The notes under the pieces were generated by a model. It had not been told where the DNA came from, did not search any database, and saw only the letters and a program-made list of their open reading frames with translations. From assembly GCA_964415025.1 (NCBI GenBank), contig CAYPXF010000007.1, positions 1 to 61,653 on the forward strand: a stretch of 61,653 bases of DNA, written 5' to 3'. Both the position numbers and the translations under genes were made by a program. This DNA is from an uncultured Gammaproteobacteria bacterium. Its GTDB lineage: Bacteria > Patescibacteriota > Patescibacteriia > UBA10025 > JAHIVO01. Shown piece by piece: positions 19,049-26,777 of the stretch. Positions within the stretch are counted from its first letter, which is position 1, and the number at the start of each line of letters is the position of its first letter.

Positions 19049-20449
19049 TTATTTTTTATCTTGCAGAGAAATATGGAGCTCGTTGAGCTGCGCTGTACTG
19101 ACCGCTGATGGTGACCCGGTCATTGGTTCGCGGTTGTCTCCAGTTTTTGGAAAAGCGACAACTTCACGAACATTAGCTTCATTAAACAAAACCATAAACA
19201 GCCGATCAATACCCGGGGCAATACCCCCATGCGGGGGAACGCCGTAGGAAAATGCCTCCAGCATGTAACCGAACTGCTGTTGTGCTTCCTGGTCTGGAAT
19301 TCCGATCAGCCGGAATATGTTTCGCTGGATATCAGGATCAGTAATACGGATACTGCCGCCGCCAACTTCAAATCCGTTGAGCACCATGTCGTGTTGCCAT
19401 GACCGGACCGCATGCGGATTAGTGTTAAGTTTGGCAATATCTTCATCTTTTGGTGAGGTAAACATGTGATGCGCCGGCGCCAAGTGGCCATTTTCCTTTT
19501 CCGGCTCAAACAACGGCCAGTCAACAACAAAACAAAAAGCTAACTCGTCTGGATTGTCCTTGTCCTGACGCAAGTCAGGTCGGTCAGTGCCATACGTGTC
19601 CATTGCCTCCTGGTACGTGAGTCGCGGCCAGGGACTGGCGCTGATTTTTTTTTCAGGAAATATTTTTTTCACCAGGCTGGTAAACAAATTTTCTGTCAGT
19701 ACTAATATGTCTGCCTGATTCGCAAAAGAGAGTTCAATATCCAGCTGATAAAATTGGTCGGGCGCGCGGTCAGCCCGGGCGTCCTCGTCACGAAAACACG
19801 GTGCTATCTGGAAATACCGTTCAAAACCAGCCACCATCAGCATTTGCTTATACTGCTGCGGAGACTGGGGTAGGGCATAAAATTTTCCCTGGTGCTGGCG
19901 CGACGGAACCAGATAATCACGCGCCCCCTCTGGGGTTGATTTAGCCAGAATAGGTGTTTCTATCTCATAAAAATCATGGCCGTGCAAATAGTCGCGCATG
20001 AATTTGATGGCCTGGGAACGTTTGATAATTTTTTGCTGGTTTTTCTGCCGGCGCAAGTCTAAATAGCGATATGTATAGCGCAACTCTTCACTGGGTTCTT
20101 CTTTCGCTGTCTCCCCTATTTCAAATGGTGTAGTCTTGGCCGTAGACAGAATAGTAAGCCCCTGTGCCTGCAGCTCGATTGTGCCGGTGGGCAAATCTTT
20201 ATTTACTAATTTTTCCGGACGTTTATTTACTAGTCCAGTAACAGCTACTACGTATTCGCCGCGGAGCGACTTGGCCTGTTCGAGTAATTCCTTATCCGCT
20301 GCTAAAAAAACTACTTGGACCACGCCCGTAATATCACGTATGTCCGCGAAGACCATTTTACCCATACGCCGGGCAGTATGGACCCAGCCGCGGATAGTGA
20401 CTGTTTGCGAAACATGCTGGGGAGTGTCAGTAATGCGAGTATGCTTCAT
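19049..20449 (-). CDS. aspS: Aspartyl-tRNA synthetase (bacterial type, GAD domain absent)
   Basis: STPEGARDYLVPSR, QSPQQYKQMLM, FRDED, PPHGGIAPGIDR. Confidence 0.95.
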   Translation of the reverse strand: MKHTRITDTPQHVSQTVTIRGWVHTARRMGKMVFADIRDITGVVQVVFLAADKELLEQAKSLRGEYVVAVTGLVNKRPEKLVNKDLPTGTIELQAQGLTILSTAKTTPFEIGETAKEEPSEELRYTYRYLDLRRQKNQQKIIKRSQAIKFMRDYLHGHDFYEIETPILAKSTPEGARDYLVPSRQHQGKFYALPQSPQQYKQMLMVAGFERYFQIAPCFRDEDARADRAPDQFYQLDIELSFANQADILVLTENLFTSLVKKIFPEKKISASPWPRLTYQEAMDTYGTDRPDLRQDKDNPDELAFCFVVDWPLFEPEKENGHLAPAHHMFTSPKDEDIAKLNTNPHAVRSWQHDMVLNGFEVGGGSIRITDPDIQRNIFRLIGIPDQEAQQQFGYMLEAFSYGVPPHGGIAPGIDRLFMVLFNEANVREVVAFPKTGDNREPMTGSPSAVSTAQLNELHISLQDKK

Positions 20450-21431: not shown

Positions 21432-22724
21432 TTATGGACGTAAACGATTAAGGAGCCGGGGGAAAGGGATAGTCTCCCGCACATGATCCAGGCCGCACAG
21501 CCAGGCGACGGTCCGCTCAAGACCAATGCCAAAACCAGCATGTGGCACTGAACCGTATTTACGCAAATCCAAATACCAGCCAAGTTCATTTTCAGACAGC
21601 TGATGTTCTTTTAGCCGCTGCTGCAATACAGTCGCATCCCAGATGCGCTCTGAACCGCCGATGATTTCACCGTATCCTTCTGGTGCCAACATATCGTTGC
21701 ATAGCGCCAGCTTGGGATCCTCCGGATCAGGCTGCATATAAAACGCTTTTATCGCTGACGGGAAGTGGGTGATAAAAATCGGAGTCTGGTACTCTTTTGT
21801 CAGCAGTGTTTCATCATCACCGCCCAAATCCTCGCCTTCTTTGATATCTGAACCCAGCTCATGCAGTTTTTGTATTGCTTCGCTATACCGTAACCGCGGA
21901 AAATTTCCCCGCGCCTTTGCCAGGAGGCTGGTATCACGCTCCAAAATTTCAAATTCATGGCTGCATGTTGTTAACACCTGTTGTACCACATAGCTGACTA
22001 ATTTTTCCTGAAGTTTCAAACTGTCCTCGTGCTGCATAAACGCGGCTTCAGCATCCAGCATCCAAAACTCCATGAGGTGCCGTCTGGTCTTCGACTTCTC
22101 TGCACGAAACGTAGGGCCAAAATCATATACCTTGCCATGCGCCATAGCCAGCGCCTCTAAATACAGCTGTCCTGATTGGGATAAATACGCAGATTCATCA
22201 AAGTATTCCGTTTCAAACAAGGTAGTCGTACCTTCGCACGATGTCGGGGTCAAAATCGGCGTGTCAGTCAAGACAAATCCCTCTTTCCGGAAAAATTCCC
22301 GCAGGCGCCAGATAATTTCATCCCTGATGCGCACCACAGCCTGCTGTCGCTCTGACCGCAGCCATAAATGCCGGTGATCCAACAAAAAATCCACACCGTG
22401 CTCTTTTTTCCCGAGGGGGTATTCCTCGGCCTGGTGAATCAGCTCAATACCGCTCACCTGCATTTCATAGCCATACGGAGAGCGTTCATCAGCCTGGACC
22501 GTGCCATTCACGCGTACGCTTGATTCAATTGTCAGTTGCTCACAGACAGCCCATGCTGCGTCACTGACTTCATTCTTGGACACGACGGCTTGTATCCGGC
22601 CTGAACCGTCCCGGATTTGCAGAAAATAAATTTTACCAGAGCTACGAAAATTAAAAACCCACCCTTGTAGCAGGACGGGTTTACCAAGATATTTGCTTAT
22701 TTTTTTCAGATGCACTTGCTCCAT
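21432..22724 (-). CDS. asnS: Asparaginyl-tRNA synthetase
   Basis: [47 protein letters not shown]; start placed after the promoter. Confidence 0.95.
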
Positions 22725-22734
22725 AGGTAAAAAT

Positions 22735-22763
22735 ATTATACCTATTTTTGAGTATTTTTGCAA
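22735..22763 (-). promoter_or_regulatory. Sigma70-type promoter of the asnS operon
   Basis: TTGCAA-17 bp-TATAAT. Confidence 0.7.
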
Positions 22764-25619: not shown

Positions 25620-25973
25620 TCATTCAGTCCACGTATTTGTCTGACCAACCACAAAGATGACAATCGCCCAGGCTAGGAGGACAACGATCAAGCCAACAAC
25701 TGCAGCGGTGATAGTTTTCTTAGCTTTCGCAATTTTATCCTCATTACCACCTGATGTGAGCCAGAGAAAACCACCGTACAGAATGAAAATAACAGCAATC
25801 AATCCCAAGAAACCAAGTACCCACTGAATAATATTCACCACTGTAGATTCTAAATCAGCAGTGCCCAGTCCAAAGGTAGAACCATAATTACCAGTGCCTA
25901 CTTGCGCTAGAGCCACTGCTGGCAGTGTTAATCCAACAAGCGTCAAGGCGCTGCTTTGTAATATTTTTTTCAT
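25620..25973 (-). CDS. CPR-type pilin (VirB2/TrbC-like)
   Basis: Signal peptide then IIQWVLGFLGLIAVIFILYGGFLWLTSGGNEDKIAKAKKTI; SD GAAAGGGGGT. Confidence 0.85.
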   Translation of the reverse strand: MKKILQSSALTLVGLTLPAVALAQVGTGNYGSTFGLGTADLESTVVNIIQWVLGFLGLIAVIFILYGGFLWLTSGGNEDKIAKAKKTITAAVVGLIVVLLAWAIVIFVVGQTNTWTE

Positions 25974-26197: not shown

Positions 26198-26270
26198 AAA
26201 AACCTTCTCATCTTTTGGGAAGGTTTTTAATGGTGGGTCGTACAGGTCTCGAACCTGTGACACCCTGCTT
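26198..26270. repeat. 73-bp direct repeat, copy 1 (terminator + tRNA-Lys 3' half)
   Basis: Identical to 26590-26662; similarity resumes at 26295-26312 and 26338-26350 after two insertions. Confidence 0.95.
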
Positions 26271-26350
26271 TACCCCGCCTGAATAGGCGGGGTAAAAAGG
26301 CAGGTGCTCTACTTCACCCCGCCCTTCGTGGGCGGGGCAAGCTGAGCTAA
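26231..26350 (-). pseudogene. Pseudo-tRNA-Lys: nt 7-76 with hairpin insertions in the anticodon loop and D loop
   Basis: Lacks acceptor-stem nt 1-6; inserts at 26271-26294 and 26313-26337. Confidence 0.85.
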
Positions 26351-26575
26351 TTTACTTTTGTATTTACGATTTTTCTTTTTAAGCCACATTTCATGTTTTC
26401 TGGCCTCTCTATAACTTTGATGTCCCTTAACATACACAAGGGTATATGGTCTTTGCCGAGCAGTAAACCAATATTTACCCGAGTTATGCTCTCGTAACCT
26501 TTTGATCGGATTAACAGATATGCCTACATAGTAGGATCTATTTTTCACACAGCAAATTAAATATGTATAAATCAT
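26309..26575 (-). CDS. Stand-alone GIY-YIG nuclease (YazA/UPF0213/Slx1-like)
   Basis: YTYLI..SYYVGIS (GIY-YIG equivalent), KRLREHNSG (Arg, His), EARKHE (Glu). Confidence 0.9.
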   Translation of the reverse strand: MIYTYLICCVKNRSYYVGISVNPIKRLREHNSGKYWFTARQRPYTLVYVKGHQSYREARKHEMWLKKKNRKYKSKLAQLAPPTKGGVK

Positions 26576-26589
26576 AGCGCTAAAACAAT

Positions 26590-26620
26590 AAAAACCTTCT
26601 CATCTTTTGGGAAGGTTTTT
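26590..26620 (-). terminator. Intrinsic terminator after tRNA-Lys (duplicated at 26198-26228)
   Basis: AAAAACCTTC...GAAGGTTTTT. Confidence 0.75.
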
Positions 26621-26662
26621 AATGGTGGGTCGTACAGGTCTCGAACCTGTGACACCCTGCTT
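26590..26662. repeat. 73-bp direct repeat, copy 2
   Basis: Identical to 26198-26270. Confidence 0.95.
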
Positions 26663-26698
26663 AAAAGGCAGGTGCTCTACCAACTGAGCTAACGACCC
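26623..26698 (-). tRNA. tRNA-Lys (anticodon TTT), CCA encoded
   Basis: GGGTCGTTAGCTCAGTTGGTAGAGCACCTGCCTTTTAAGCAGGGTGTCACAGGTTCGAGACCTGTACGACCCACCA, 76 nt. Confidence 0.97.
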
Positions 26699-26726: not shown

Positions 26727-26777
26727 ATAGTAACAAATAAATACTAATTTGACAAGGCCATACAATATGAGTATATG
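26727..26777. promoter_or_regulatory. Divergent overlapping promoters for tRNA-Lys and dnaB
   Basis: Minus: TTGTCA-17-TACTAT (26755 to 26727); plus: TTGACA (26749)-17-TATATG. Confidence 0.55.

What the first reader, a model, noticed from the sequence alone, without database searches (positions are those of the whole stretch)
26271..26337. Two related CCCCGCC/GGCGGGG hairpins inserted precisely into tRNA loops
Seen: insert 1 (26271-26294) is the perfect 10-bp hairpin TACCCCGCCT-GAAT-AGGCGGGGTA, placed at TT^AA between anticodon positions 36 and 37 with no target duplication. Insert 2 (26313-26337) is TTCA + CCCCGCCC-TTCGT-GGGCGGGG in the D loop between G18 and G19. The intact tRNA has neither. 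Established: REP elements and IS200/IS605 end hairpins are short GC palindromes mobilised without target-site duplication. Inference: these are non-autonomous elements, or deliberate changes that immunise the element's own tRNA copy against its nuclease, since homing elements disrupt their own recognition site.
Basis: partly seen in the sequence, partly recalled or inferred. Interest (0 to 1): 0.78.

Follow-up and report, generated by a model that had tools for sequence, protein, structure and literature searches.

The report
Mobile GC hairpins in a dead tRNA copy
The two hairpins are copies of a tiny GC-rich palindromic insertion element, common in the ultra-small CPR/Patescibacteria bacteria, that travels with a minimal GIY-YIG nuclease gene colonising tRNA genes; I found no description of this pairing in the searchable literature.

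Summary
An intact tRNA-Lys(UUU) is followed by an 88-aa GIY-YIG gene and a 5'-truncated tRNA-Lys copy. That copy carries one GC hairpin in the D loop and one in the anticodon loop (between positions 36 and 37, no target duplication).

This is a family trait, not a local oddity. Across the 47 distinct related nuclease genes found in CPR genomes, metagenomes and this window:
- 39 lie within 120 nt of an intact tRNA on the same strand.
- 26 read through a near-invariant "tRNA D-arm::hairpin" module that supplies their last codons and stop codon.
- The neighbouring tRNA copy carries one to three hairpins in its loops.

Hairpins with the same signature also occur away from tRNAs. Some sit in frame inside protein genes; the RecG site is present in a few relatives and absent in 60. 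One site lies just upstream of 23S rRNA.

In three loci the nuclease gene sits between the two hairpin arms. The protein is of the Slx1/UPF0213 type, which cuts DNA structures, not the I-TevI or Seg type.

The "non-autonomous mobile element" reading is supported. A REP/IS200 relationship is not. The "immunising change" idea stays possible only for the D-loop hairpin. How the elements move is inferred, not shown.

The parts
26727..26755 (-). Promoter-like site (TTGTCA-17-TACTAT with TG) about 30 nt upstream of the intact tRNA-Lys
   Evidence: Consensus scan only. The number of such sites is not above the shuffled expectation, so this is weak.
26623..26698 (-). Intact tRNA-Lys(UUU) with encoded CCA; the functional copy
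   Evidence: ARAGORN; Rfam tRNA 72.6 bits.
26590..26620 (-). Terminator-like stem-loop plus T run after the intact tRNA (first copy of the duplicated segment)
   Evidence: Inverted repeat I2 and direct repeat D1; folds as a long helix in its twin copy.
26309..26575 (-). 88-aa GIY-YIG nuclease gene of Slx1/UPF0213 type. Its last 13 codons (LAQLAPPTKGGVK) and its TAG stop are encoded by the tRNA D arm plus the D-loop hairpin.
   Evidence: ORF. Pfam PF01541 E=2e-14. All family-invariant residues present. PDB profile hits UPF0213 at E about 1e-10 and SLX1 at 1e-5. AlphaFold pLDDT 87 with the tail (residues 84-88) below 50; Foldseek best hits 1zg2, 1ywl and Slx1, with I-TevI and UvrC far behind.
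26231..26350 (-). 5'-truncated, non-functional duplicate of tRNA-Lys(UUU), positions 7-76, interrupted by two hairpins
   Evidence: Gapped alignment to the intact gene; 100% identical outside the inserts from position 22 on; not called by ARAGORN or Rfam.
26313..26341 (-). D-loop hairpin unit: CTTG-CCCCGCCC-ACGAA-GGGCGGGG-TGAA on the tRNA strand. It is part of the family-wide 'D-arm::hairpin' module that ends the nuclease ORF.
   Evidence: The same module is in 26 of 47 nuclease ORF tails. Third-codon-position entropy is 0.25 bit there against 1.00 bit in the catalytic motif.
26271..26294 (-). Anticodon-loop hairpin: a 24-nt clean insertion between U36 and A37 with no target duplication; stem extends to 26269-26296
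   Evidence: Absent from the closest relative L002. Among the 255 fetched loci its 14-nt inner core (CGCCTATTCAGGCG) recurs only inside a nested D-loop hairpin of another tRNA-Lys locus, L027.
26198..26228 (-). Second copy of the terminator-like stem-loop; end of the duplicated segment
   Evidence: Direct repeat D1, 100% identical; helix in the RNA fold.

Best explanation
The two hairpins are copies of a family of about 25-30-bp GC-rich palindromic insertion elements. The element has an 8-bp stem CCCCGCCY/RGGCGGGG, a 3-10-nt loop, and usually a CTTG or TTTA leader and a TGAA or TAAA trailer. The family is widespread in CPR/Patescibacteria and genetically tied to a minimal GIY-YIG nuclease gene of the Slx1/UPF0213 type that colonises tRNA genes.

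In this window the nuclease gene and a dead, 5'-truncated duplicate of tRNA-Lys form a 392-bp unit placed directly behind the intact tRNA-Lys and its terminator.
- The D-loop hairpin is a fixed end-module of that unit. The tRNA D arm plus hairpin supplies the nuclease's last 13 codons and its stop codon.
- The anticodon-loop hairpin is a later, separate insertion without target duplication.

Proposed working (inferred):
1. The nuclease breaks DNA at tRNA-gene or hairpin (cruciform) structures.
2. Recombinational repair, using the highly conserved D-arm sequence as homology, duplicates the tRNA segment and copies the nuclease gene with it. This was shown experimentally for phage SegB.
3. An intact tRNA is kept or brought along, so the cell survives.
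4. The redundant tRNA copy, next to the source and free of selection, collects further hairpins.
5. As a side effect the hairpins kill the copy and break up its homology with the intact gene and any nuclease sites in it.

Shown here: the anatomy, the family-wide recurrence, the link to the nuclease gene, insertion without duplication, polymorphism at one protein site, and the nuclease's clade. Inferred: who cuts what, and how the hairpin is copied.
For: Anatomy of the window.

Family-wide recurrence:
- 31 CPR genome loci were found through the nuclease. In about 20 of them the ORF tail runs into a copy of the same tRNA as the intact neighbour. That copy carries 1-3 hairpins in the D loop, at position 26, in the anticodon loop (35/36, 36/37, 37/38), in the variable loop or in the T loop.
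- Of 47 distinct nuclease ORFs, 39 have an intact tRNA within 120 nt on the same strand and 26 read through the D-arm::hairpin.
- The tail is conserved as DNA, not as protein: third-position entropy is 0.25 against 1.00 bit, and it is predicted disordered.

Architecture:
- In L007 and L014 a 5' tRNA fragment upstream pairs with the 3' acceptor strand of the hairpin-bearing copy downstream, not with the intact tRNA between them. So a resident tRNA was split and the intact one came in as cargo.
- About 14 'solo' loci keep only the 5' fragment::hairpin in front of an intact tRNA.

Hairpins as independent insertions:
- 130 hairpins were found in at least 120 metagenome contigs. 68 lie within 500 nt of an intact tRNA (67 on the same strand). 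42 lie within 1 kb of the nuclease gene (41 on the same strand). 36 lie in frame inside long ORFs.
- The RecG insertion is an 8-residue gap against the solved RecG structure 1gm5. It is absent from 60 of 65 CPR RecG homologs whose sequence spans the insertion site.
- In L018, L019 and L023 the nuclease ORF lies between the arms CCCCGCCAAT...ATTGGCGGGG. This is the usual relation between an autonomous element and its miniature derivatives.
- Nested forms exist: a hairpin inside a hairpin (L027) and an intact tRNA inside a hairpin loop (L021).

Stem: pairing is kept through double changes at position 1 (CG to TA, 6 hairpins), position 5 (GC to AT, 2) and position 8 (TA 22, CG 21).

Nuclease clade: UPF0213 and Slx1, which cut DNA structures.

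Precedent: SegB cuts inside tRNA genes and drives recombination-dependent tandem amplification of segB plus a tRNA gene (PMC13096335).
Against: - No cleavage, binding or transposition data exist for this protein.
- The 88-aa protein has no DNA-binding domain, so its target choice is unexplained.
- 60 of 130 hairpins have neither a tRNA nor a nuclease gene nearby. Contigs are short, so action from a distant gene cannot be judged.
- An intact, presumably cleavable tRNA persists next to the nuclease gene.
- Hairpins within one locus have different loops, so simple local copying does not explain them.
- The window holds only these two hairpins in 61.6 kb, so there is no sign of genome-wide activity in this organism.
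- I found no empty-site relative of this particular locus.
Confidence: 0.6

Rival explanations
1. Immunity only. The nuclease is a homing endonuclease that recognises tRNA-gene sequence. The hairpins are selected changes that destroy its sites in the cassette's own tRNA copy, and they reduce recombination that would delete the gene. On this view they are not themselves mobile.
For: The D-loop hairpin is present in nearly all tRNA-linked cassettes and flanks them on both sides. SegB cuts at several places inside tRNA genes, which would fit several hairpins per copy. The hairpins do interrupt the repeat between the two tRNA copies.
Against: The same unit occurs in frame in protein genes, upstream of 23S rRNA and in terminator loops far from any tRNA or nuclease gene. 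The RecG site is polymorphic. An intact tRNA with an unbroken D arm sits 0-140 nt from the gene in 39 of 47 cases, and many of these have the canonical D arm. Immunity does not explain a conserved stem sequence, nested hairpins, or an ORF placed between the arms.
Confidence: 0.18
2. Independent repeat. The hairpins are a REP/MITE-like family moved by some other enzyme or by replication slippage. They pile up in any dispensable tRNA duplicate. The GIY-YIG gene merely creates such duplicates and has no role in moving hairpins.
For: 46% of the sampled hairpins have no nuclease gene on the same contig. 15 of 47 nuclease ORFs have no hairpin in their tail. G.T and A.C mismatches in the stems are equally frequent, 10 against 9, as expected for a plain DNA palindrome.
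Against: The ORF is nested between the arms in three loci, each labelled as a different CPR lineage, with identical 10-bp arms. The ORF tail is fused to a hairpin in 26 of 47 cases. 41 of 42 nearby hairpins share the gene's strand. No HUH transposase lies within about 7 kb in the window. In the window the only two hairpins in 61.6 kb lie within 100 nt of the nuclease gene's end.
Confidence: 0.14
3. RNA-level role. The hairpins act in the transcript: as intron-like or expansion segments of a still functional tRNA, as a 3' stabiliser of the nuclease mRNA, or as a block to RNase P/Z processing of the tRNA-like mRNA tail.
For: In the RNA fold each hairpin stacks on the D stem or the anticodon stem, so the arms of the cloverleaf are simply lengthened. 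Insertions in tRNA copies are in loops and nearly always in sense orientation. The nuclease mRNA ends inside the tRNA-like region.
Against: The window copy lacks the 5' acceptor strand, and an intact tRNA is always adjacent. The insertion position varies (35/36, 36/37, 37/38), there is no bulge-helix-bulge motif, and no Rfam family matches. There is no excess of G.U over A.C mismatches. In protein genes both orientations occur. No U tract follows the hairpins.
Confidence: 0.06
4. Chance palindromes or an assembly artefact.
For: Generic CCCCGCC...GGCGGGG hairpins occur elsewhere, for example in 104 stretches of viral contigs.
Against: The folding z-scores are strong. The same module with the same flanks occurs in dozens of independent assemblies. 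None of the 105 viral hairpin matches has the family's CTTG leader or a D-arm context.
Confidence: 0.01

Closest known systems
SegB, the free-standing GIY-YIG homing endonuclease in the tRNA gene cluster of T-even phages
   Same: A GIY-YIG nuclease gene embedded among tRNA genes. SegB cuts inside tRNA genes and drives recombination-dependent tandem amplification of the segB-plus-tRNA segment (PMC13096335). Here the nuclease gene likewise sits between tandem tRNA copies.
   Different: SegB is a larger phage protein; truncating its C-terminus abolished the toxicity of overexpression. My own knowledge puts it at about 220 aa with a C-terminal DNA-binding part. The CPR protein is 80-95 aa, catalytic domain only, chromosomal, and closest to UPF0213/Slx1, with I-TevI-type enzymes far behind. 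No palindromic hairpins are reported for SegB.
Rickettsia palindromic elements (RPE)
   Same: Palindromic repeats inserted both between genes and in frame inside protein-coding genes, and tolerated there (PMC1779305). The CPR hairpins do the same in RecG, a membrane protein and others.
   Different: RPEs are 100-150 bp, occur in Rickettsiales, and I know of no linked enzyme gene for them. The CPR unit is 25-30 bp, favours tRNA-gene loops, and is linked to a nuclease gene.
REP/BIME sequences with RAYT, and IS200/IS605 end hairpins
   Same: Short GC-rich palindromes; insertion without target duplication; an associated enzyme gene sometimes flanked by the repeats.
   Different: The partner here is a GIY-YIG nuclease, not a Y1 HUH transposase. 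There is no GTAG head and no fixed target tetranucleotide. The elements occur inside genes, and only two copies lie in 61.6 kb.
Mitochondrial GC clusters and hairpin elements (yeast GC42; Neurospora PstI palindromes flanking tRNA genes)
   Same: Small GC-rich palindromes in AT-richer genomes, mobile, merging and nesting, often next to tRNA genes (PMC4478555; the Neurospora case is from its reference list and my own knowledge).
   Different: They are organellar, their sequences are unrelated, no dedicated nuclease is established for them, and they are not reported inside tRNA loops of a duplicated gene copy.
Integrative elements that target tRNA genes and restore the gene
   Same: A tRNA gene is the landing site and a working tRNA is preserved. 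In L007 and L014 the intact tRNA is imported and the resident one is split.
   Different: No integrase is present. The junction is in the D arm, not the 3' end. A whole tRNA is carried, and the cassette is only about 0.4 kb.

Membership tests
REP/RAYT (REPtron) | Associated Y1 HUH transposase (RAYT) gene | tested here: not met
   Pfam on 13 ORFs within about 7 kb of the element finds aminoacyl-tRNA synthetases, RecR, RuvX, a glycosyltransferase, an M24 peptidase, DUF192, a pilin and the GIY-YIG gene; the P-type ATPase and DnaB calls there rest on reading the ORF translations only. There is no Y1_Tnp. In related loci the linked gene is GIY-YIG. The rest of the window was not scanned.
REP/RAYT (REPtron) | Many extragenic copies per genome with a conserved GTAG-type head | tested here: not met
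   Two copies in 61.6 kb, both inside a tRNA copy. The head is CTTG, CTCG or TTTA. Copies occur inside ORFs.
IS200/IS605 | TnpA (Y1) gene, different subterminal hairpins at the two ends, insertion 3' of a fixed tetra- or pentanucleotide | tested here: not met
   No TnpA nearby. The unit is a single hairpin. The bases left of the insertions have no common motif.
IS200/IS605 | Insertion without target-site duplication | tested here: met
   Clean 23-26-nt insertions against the intact tRNA in the window, L009, L012, L015, L017 and L028.
Free-standing GIY-YIG homing endonuclease (Seg type) | GIY-YIG catalytic domain with the catalytic residues | tested here: met
   PF01541 E=2e-14; the family-invariant Y5, Y16, G18, R26, H30, N31 and E62 are present; confident fold.
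Free-standing GIY-YIG homing endonuclease (Seg type) | Separate DNA-binding domain that gives a long recognition site | tested here: not met
   The protein is 88 aa. Residues 1-79 form the catalytic domain and the remaining tail is low-confidence, with pLDDT below 50 for 84-88. The nearest structures are UPF0213 and Slx1; I-TevI scores E=0.7.
Free-standing GIY-YIG homing endonuclease (Seg type) | Cuts the allele that lacks the gene; own allele is resistant | not testable with these tools
   Needs a cleavage assay. The D-loop hairpin would fit 'resistant allele', but an intact tRNA sits alongside.
Protein-coding palindromic repeats (RPE-like) | In-frame insertion in conserved protein genes, absent from orthologs | tested here: met
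   For the hairpin family, not in this window. In RecG there is an 8-residue gap against 1gm5 at the hairpin peptide. 60 of 65 CPR RecG homologs lack it, 3 carry it and 2 carry longer, unrecognisable inserts.
Protein-coding palindromic repeats (RPE-like) | RPE sequence families, 100-150 bp, Rickettsiales | tested here: not met
   The unit is 25-32 nt and the hosts are CPR. RPE size is taken from PMC1779305.
tRNA introns (group I; archaeal bulge-helix-bulge) | Ribozyme core or bulge-helix-bulge motif, a fixed position, and an otherwise complete tRNA | tested here: not met
   No Rfam match other than the intact tRNA. The fold is a continuous helix with 1-nt bulges. The position varies from 35/36 to 37/38, and the 5' acceptor strand is missing.

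The most novel reading that the evidence does not exclude
A new class of bacterial mobile element. A domain-only, Slx1-like GIY-YIG nuclease would act as the mobilising enzyme of hairpin-ended DNA: the autonomous form is hairpin arms flanking the gene, and the miniature form is the 25-30-bp hairpin alone. It would recognise DNA structure rather than sequence and insert into single-stranded loops of folded DNA. tRNA-gene cloverleaves would be the preferred target, and the hairpin loop itself a landing pad for cargo such as a replacement tRNA.
Probability: 0.25. Interest if true: 0.9.

Novelty: new variant of a known kind. Interest (0 to 1): 0.77.

Why it matters
CPR/Patescibacteria make up a large share of bacterial diversity and have tiny genomes in which many tRNAs are likely encoded only once. 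A selfish cassette that lands in tRNA genes, splits them and brings or keeps a working copy would be a distinct strategy for surviving in such genomes.

The hairpin family would also explain small lineage-specific peptide inserts in conserved proteins such as RecG (FSPRxxxGGAS) and the LAPPxxGGVK peptide in a membrane protein. It would also explain tRNA-like fragments that confuse gene callers.

If the minimal Slx1-type GIY-YIG protein really moves the hairpins, two things follow. It would give a function to members of the widespread but uncharacterised UPF0213 family. It would also add a nuclease type not so far known, to my knowledge, to drive DNA-only transposition.

Tried and rejected
1. 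RNA-only constraint. I compared G.T with A.C mismatches in 51 distinct stems. The counts were 10 and 9, so there is no wobble excess and no support for an RNA-specific structure.
2. Bare core as a signature. A scan of viral contigs with CCCCGCC-N3-11-GGCGGGGTRAA gave 104 stretches. None has the CTTG leader or a D-arm context and none has the nuclease gene. The core alone is not diagnostic, and the family was not seen in IMG/VR.
3. Known RNA families. Rfam finds only the intact tRNA in the region.
4. 'Insertion only into loops of existing stem-loops'. Flank complementarity of 50 non-tRNA insertions is above permuted pairs (mean -3.88 against -2.72 +/- 0.31 kcal/mol; 0 of 300 permutations reach it). 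The effect comes from about 10 sites, so it is at most a partial preference.
5. Source of the window. The exact nuclease protein is not on record in the contig index, so I found no second copy and no empty site.
6. NCBIfam has no model for the protein.
7. ARAGORN calls over two hairpin-bearing copies (L157, L183) turned out to be poor models built partly from hairpin bases.
8. Literature. Seven full-text searches found no description of this system.
9. Loop flip. Some hairpins have reverse-complement loops, for example TGAACTA and TAGTTCA in L003, but one orientation dominates. I drew no conclusion from this.

Full report
**1. The observation**

- On the minus strand the region reads: promoter-like site, intact tRNA-Lys(UUU) (26698-26623), a terminator-like stem-loop, an 88-codon ORF (26575-26309), a second tRNA-Lys-like stretch (26350-26231), and the same terminator again.
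- The second stretch matches the intact gene from position 7 to the CCA end.
- From position 22 on it is 100% identical to the intact gene apart from one block, a 24-nt perfect hairpin lying exactly between U36 and A37 with no duplicated bases (26271-26294). A direct repeat of 18 + 73 nt confirms the identity.
- The other block is a hairpin in the D loop (core 26317-26337). The D-loop change is not a plain insertion: CAG-TTG-G became CAG-C-TTG-[CCCCGCCC ACGAA GGGCGGGG]-TGAA-G.
- The copy has lost the 5' acceptor strand and is not called as a tRNA.
- Both hairpins are far more stable than shuffles: z -7.3 and -4.1. They are the only ones of their kind in the 61.6-kb window.

**2. The gene between the copies**

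- The ORF is a GIY-YIG nuclease (Pfam E=2e-14) with all residues that are invariant in its family.
- By profile search and by predicted structure (pLDDT 87) it is closest to the uncharacterised bacterial UPF0213 proteins and to the nuclease domain of Slx1, an enzyme that cuts branched DNA. I-TevI and UvrC score far behind.
- It has no DNA-binding domain.
- Its last 13 codons (LAQLAPPTKGGVK) and its TAG stop are encoded by the tRNA D arm and the D-loop hairpin. APP is GCC-CCG-CCC and GG is GGC-GGG. The model gives the last residues (84-88) no confident structure.

**3. It is a family trait**

- The 28 protein homologs come from CPR bacteria, and most end in LAQLAPP-xx-GGVK with only the two 'loop' residues varying.
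- I fetched 31 genome loci. In nearly all, an intact tRNA ends 0-15 nt before the start codon. The tRNAs are Thr, Val, Lys, Phe, Ile or Met; tRNA-Val reads ...CCCAC(C)ATG.
- The ORF then runs into a second copy of the same tRNA carrying CCCCGCC/GGCGGGG hairpins.
- The D-loop module TAGCTCAG-CTTG-hairpin-TGAA-GTAGAGC is nearly invariant. Further hairpins lie at position 26, in the anticodon loop (35/36, 36/37 or 37/38), in the variable loop or in the T loop, up to three per copy (L017).
- Counting all 47 distinct ORFs from genomes, metagenomes and the window: 26 read through the D-arm::hairpin, 3 have another hairpin in the tail, 3 contain only the right arm, and 15 have none. 31 have an intact tRNA within 120 nt upstream and 8 have one downstream.
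- The tail codons are conserved at silent positions: 0.25 bit against 1.00 bit in the best-conserved catalytic motif, n=18. The constraint is therefore on the DNA, not on the peptide.

**4. Architecture of the cassette**

- The fullest loci (L003, L007, L013, L014, L025, L027) read as follows: [5' tRNA fragment, positions 1 to about 26, with a D-loop hairpin] - spacer - intact tRNA and nuclease ORF in either order - [tRNA positions 8-76 with a D-loop hairpin and often more].
- In L007 and L014 the acceptor strand of the 5' fragment (GCGCGAT, GCCGATG) is complementary to the 3' acceptor strand of the downstream hairpin-bearing copy. It is not complementary to the intact tRNA lying between them, which differs by compensated stem changes. 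A resident tRNA was thus split and the working tRNA came in as cargo.
- About 14 metagenome loci keep only the 5' fragment::hairpin 20-140 nt in front of an intact tRNA.
- The window has the simplest form: intact tRNA, ORF, hairpin-bearing 3' copy. Its two copies are identical, so I cannot say which is resident.

**5. What the hairpins are**

- From 51 distinct hairpins the unit is an 8-bp stem CCCCGCCY/RGGCGGGG, a 3-10-nt loop, a leader (CTTG, CTCG or TTTA) and a trailer (TGAA or TAAA).
- Pairing is kept through double changes at stem positions 1, 5 and 8. G.T and A.C mismatches are equally rare, 10 against 9.
The counts:

| Class of hairpin | Count (of 130) |
|---|---|
| In a tRNA D-arm context | 44 |
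| Within 500 nt of an intact tRNA | 68 (67 on its strand) |
| Within 1 kb of a nuclease homolog | 42 (41 on its strand) |
| Neither tRNA nor nuclease gene nearby | 60 |

- Of the 60 with neither nearby, 36 lie in frame inside long ORFs.
- In a RecG helicase the hairpin peptide (FSPRPEAGGAS) falls in an 8-residue gap against the solved T. maritima RecG. Of the 65 CPR RecG homologs whose sequence spans the insertion site, 60 lack it, 3 carry it and 2 carry what may be decayed versions.
- Other sites are a membrane protein (LAPPEIGGVK), about 30 nt upstream of 23S rRNA (seen in three contigs, L145, L153 and L196; confirmed by Rfam only in L145), and the loop of a terminator.
- In L018, L019 and L023, each labelled as a different CPR lineage, the nuclease ORF itself lies between the arms CCCCGCCAAT and ATTGGCGGGG. 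In L021 an intact tRNA-Thr lies in the loop of a D-loop hairpin. In L027 one hairpin lies in the loop of another.
- Among the 255 fetched loci, the 14-nt inner core (CGCCTATTCAGGCG) of the window's anticodon-loop hairpin recurs only in that nested L027 hairpin, at another tRNA-Lys locus.
- Phage contigs hold generic GC hairpins but none with the family's flanks or gene.

**6. How it most likely works**

Shown: a small palindromic unit that inserts without target duplication, is polymorphic at one protein site, is tolerated in frame in proteins, and is tightly linked in position and strand to a structure-type GIY-YIG gene that lives at tRNA genes between an intact and a disrupted copy.

Inferred:
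- The nuclease makes breaks at tRNA-gene or hairpin (cruciform) DNA.
- Repair by recombination, using the conserved D arm as homology, duplicates the tRNA segment and copies the gene. Phage SegB does experimentally the same: it cuts inside tRNA genes and, through recombination, tandemly amplifies segB plus a tRNA gene (PMC13096335).
- The short hairpins are miniature derivatives of the arm-flanked gene.
- The redundant tRNA copy, unselected and next to the source, collects them. The window has two in 120 nt against none in the other 61.5 kb.
- The effect on the cassette is to kill the copy and to break up both its homology with the intact gene and any nuclease sites. Whether that effect is selected is open.

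**7. Rivals**

- Pure 'immunity' is weakened by the non-tRNA contexts and by the intact tRNA sitting beside the gene. It remains possible for the D-loop hairpin.
- An unrelated mobilising enzyme cannot be excluded, because contigs are short. The arm-flanked ORFs, the fused ORF tails and the shared strand speak against it.
- An RNA-level role (intron, expansion segment, mRNA end) is unlikely. The 5' acceptor strand is missing, the position varies, there is no splicing motif, there is no wobble excess, and both orientations occur in ORFs.

**8. Comparison and novelty**

- The system works partly like SegB-type tRNA-linked homing endonucleases and partly like palindromic repeats that invade genes, such as RPEs (PMC1779305), and like mitochondrial GC clusters (PMC4478555).
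- It fails the defining tests for REP/RAYT and IS200/IS605: no HUH enzyme nearby, a different head, no target motif. It also fails those for Seg-type enzymes (no DNA-binding domain, a different clade) and for tRNA introns.
- Seven full-text searches found no description of it.
- I rate it a new variant of known kinds. It carries a real chance of being a new type of mobile element if the nuclease proves to move the hairpins.

Noticed in passing
L231, L239 and L255 (metagenome loci), and proteins P0029, P0047 and P0069: A RecG helicase of some CPR bacteria carries an in-frame hairpin-encoded peptide (FSPRLETGGAS and variants) between helicase motifs. 60 of 65 CPR RecG homologs that span the site lack it. 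P0030 and P0114 have longer inserts at the same site that may be decayed copies.
   Followed up: yes
L021:2213-2320: An intact tRNA-Thr(GGU) sits exactly in the loop of a D-loop hairpin (CCCCGCCAGA[tRNA]TCTGGCGGGG) inside another tRNA-Thr copy. This suggests the hairpin loop is itself a landing site for cargo.
   Followed up: partly
L018:1985-2240, L019:1980-2240, L023:1978-2225: In three loci, each labelled as a different CPR lineage, the GIY-YIG ORF lies between 10-bp inverted arms CCCCGCCAAT/ATTGGCGGGG with no tRNA nearby. In L018 and L019 the flanks suggest the ORF is antisense to the usual hairpin orientation.
   Followed up: partly
L145:2202-2229, L153:9366-9393, L196:100-127: A hairpin of the family lies about 30 nt upstream of the 5' end of 23S rRNA, between flanks that pair with each other (GCCCGC/GCGGGC). 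These flanks may be the rRNA processing stem. The 23S match was run only for L145; L153 and L196 are inferred from near-identical flanks.
   Followed up: partly
L003:1853-1873 against 2233-2253: The two D-loop hairpins of one locus have reverse-complement loops (TGAACTA and TAGTTCA) between identical stems and flanks, so the loop has flipped. Across the metagenome set one orientation dominates, for example TGAGCTA 6 against TAGCTCA 1.
   Followed up: partly
L002:1900-2460: The closest relative of the window's cassette (also tRNA-Lys, protein 74% identical) has three repeated fragments made of a hairpin fused to the last 13 nt of the tRNA (GTACGACCCACCA). It also has an AT-rich replacement of the anticodon and T arms. 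These loci are rearrangement hot spots with hairpins at the junctions.
   Followed up: partly
L006:2239-2285 and L218:647-729: Tandem duplication of the hairpin (L006), or of the whole 5'-fragment::hairpin module (L218), directly in front of an intact tRNA.
   Followed up: no
window 19049-20449 and 21432-22763 (both -): Two class II aminoacyl-tRNA synthetase genes of the Asp/Lys/Asn type lie about 1 kb apart, separated by two ORFs (197 and 180 aa) with no Pfam match.
   Followed up: no
window 25620-25973 (-): A 117-aa signal-peptide protein matches the type IV secretion pilin family (PF18895, E=6e-13), which I recall being common in CPR bacteria. It lies just downstream of the cassette.
   Followed up: no
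L002, L014, L015, L026, L027 (record titles): Several MAGs carrying the same CPR-type cassette are labelled Gammaproteobacteria or Alphaproteobacteria in their records. The contigs may be misbinned or the labels wrong.
   Followed up: no
L239:4535-7228 (-): The CPR RecG ORF has about 150 residues (473-622) between the two helicase lobes that do not align to the solved RecG. Many database homologs are called as 100-300-aa fragments even on long contigs, so gene calls for this protein seem to be broken.
   Followed up: no
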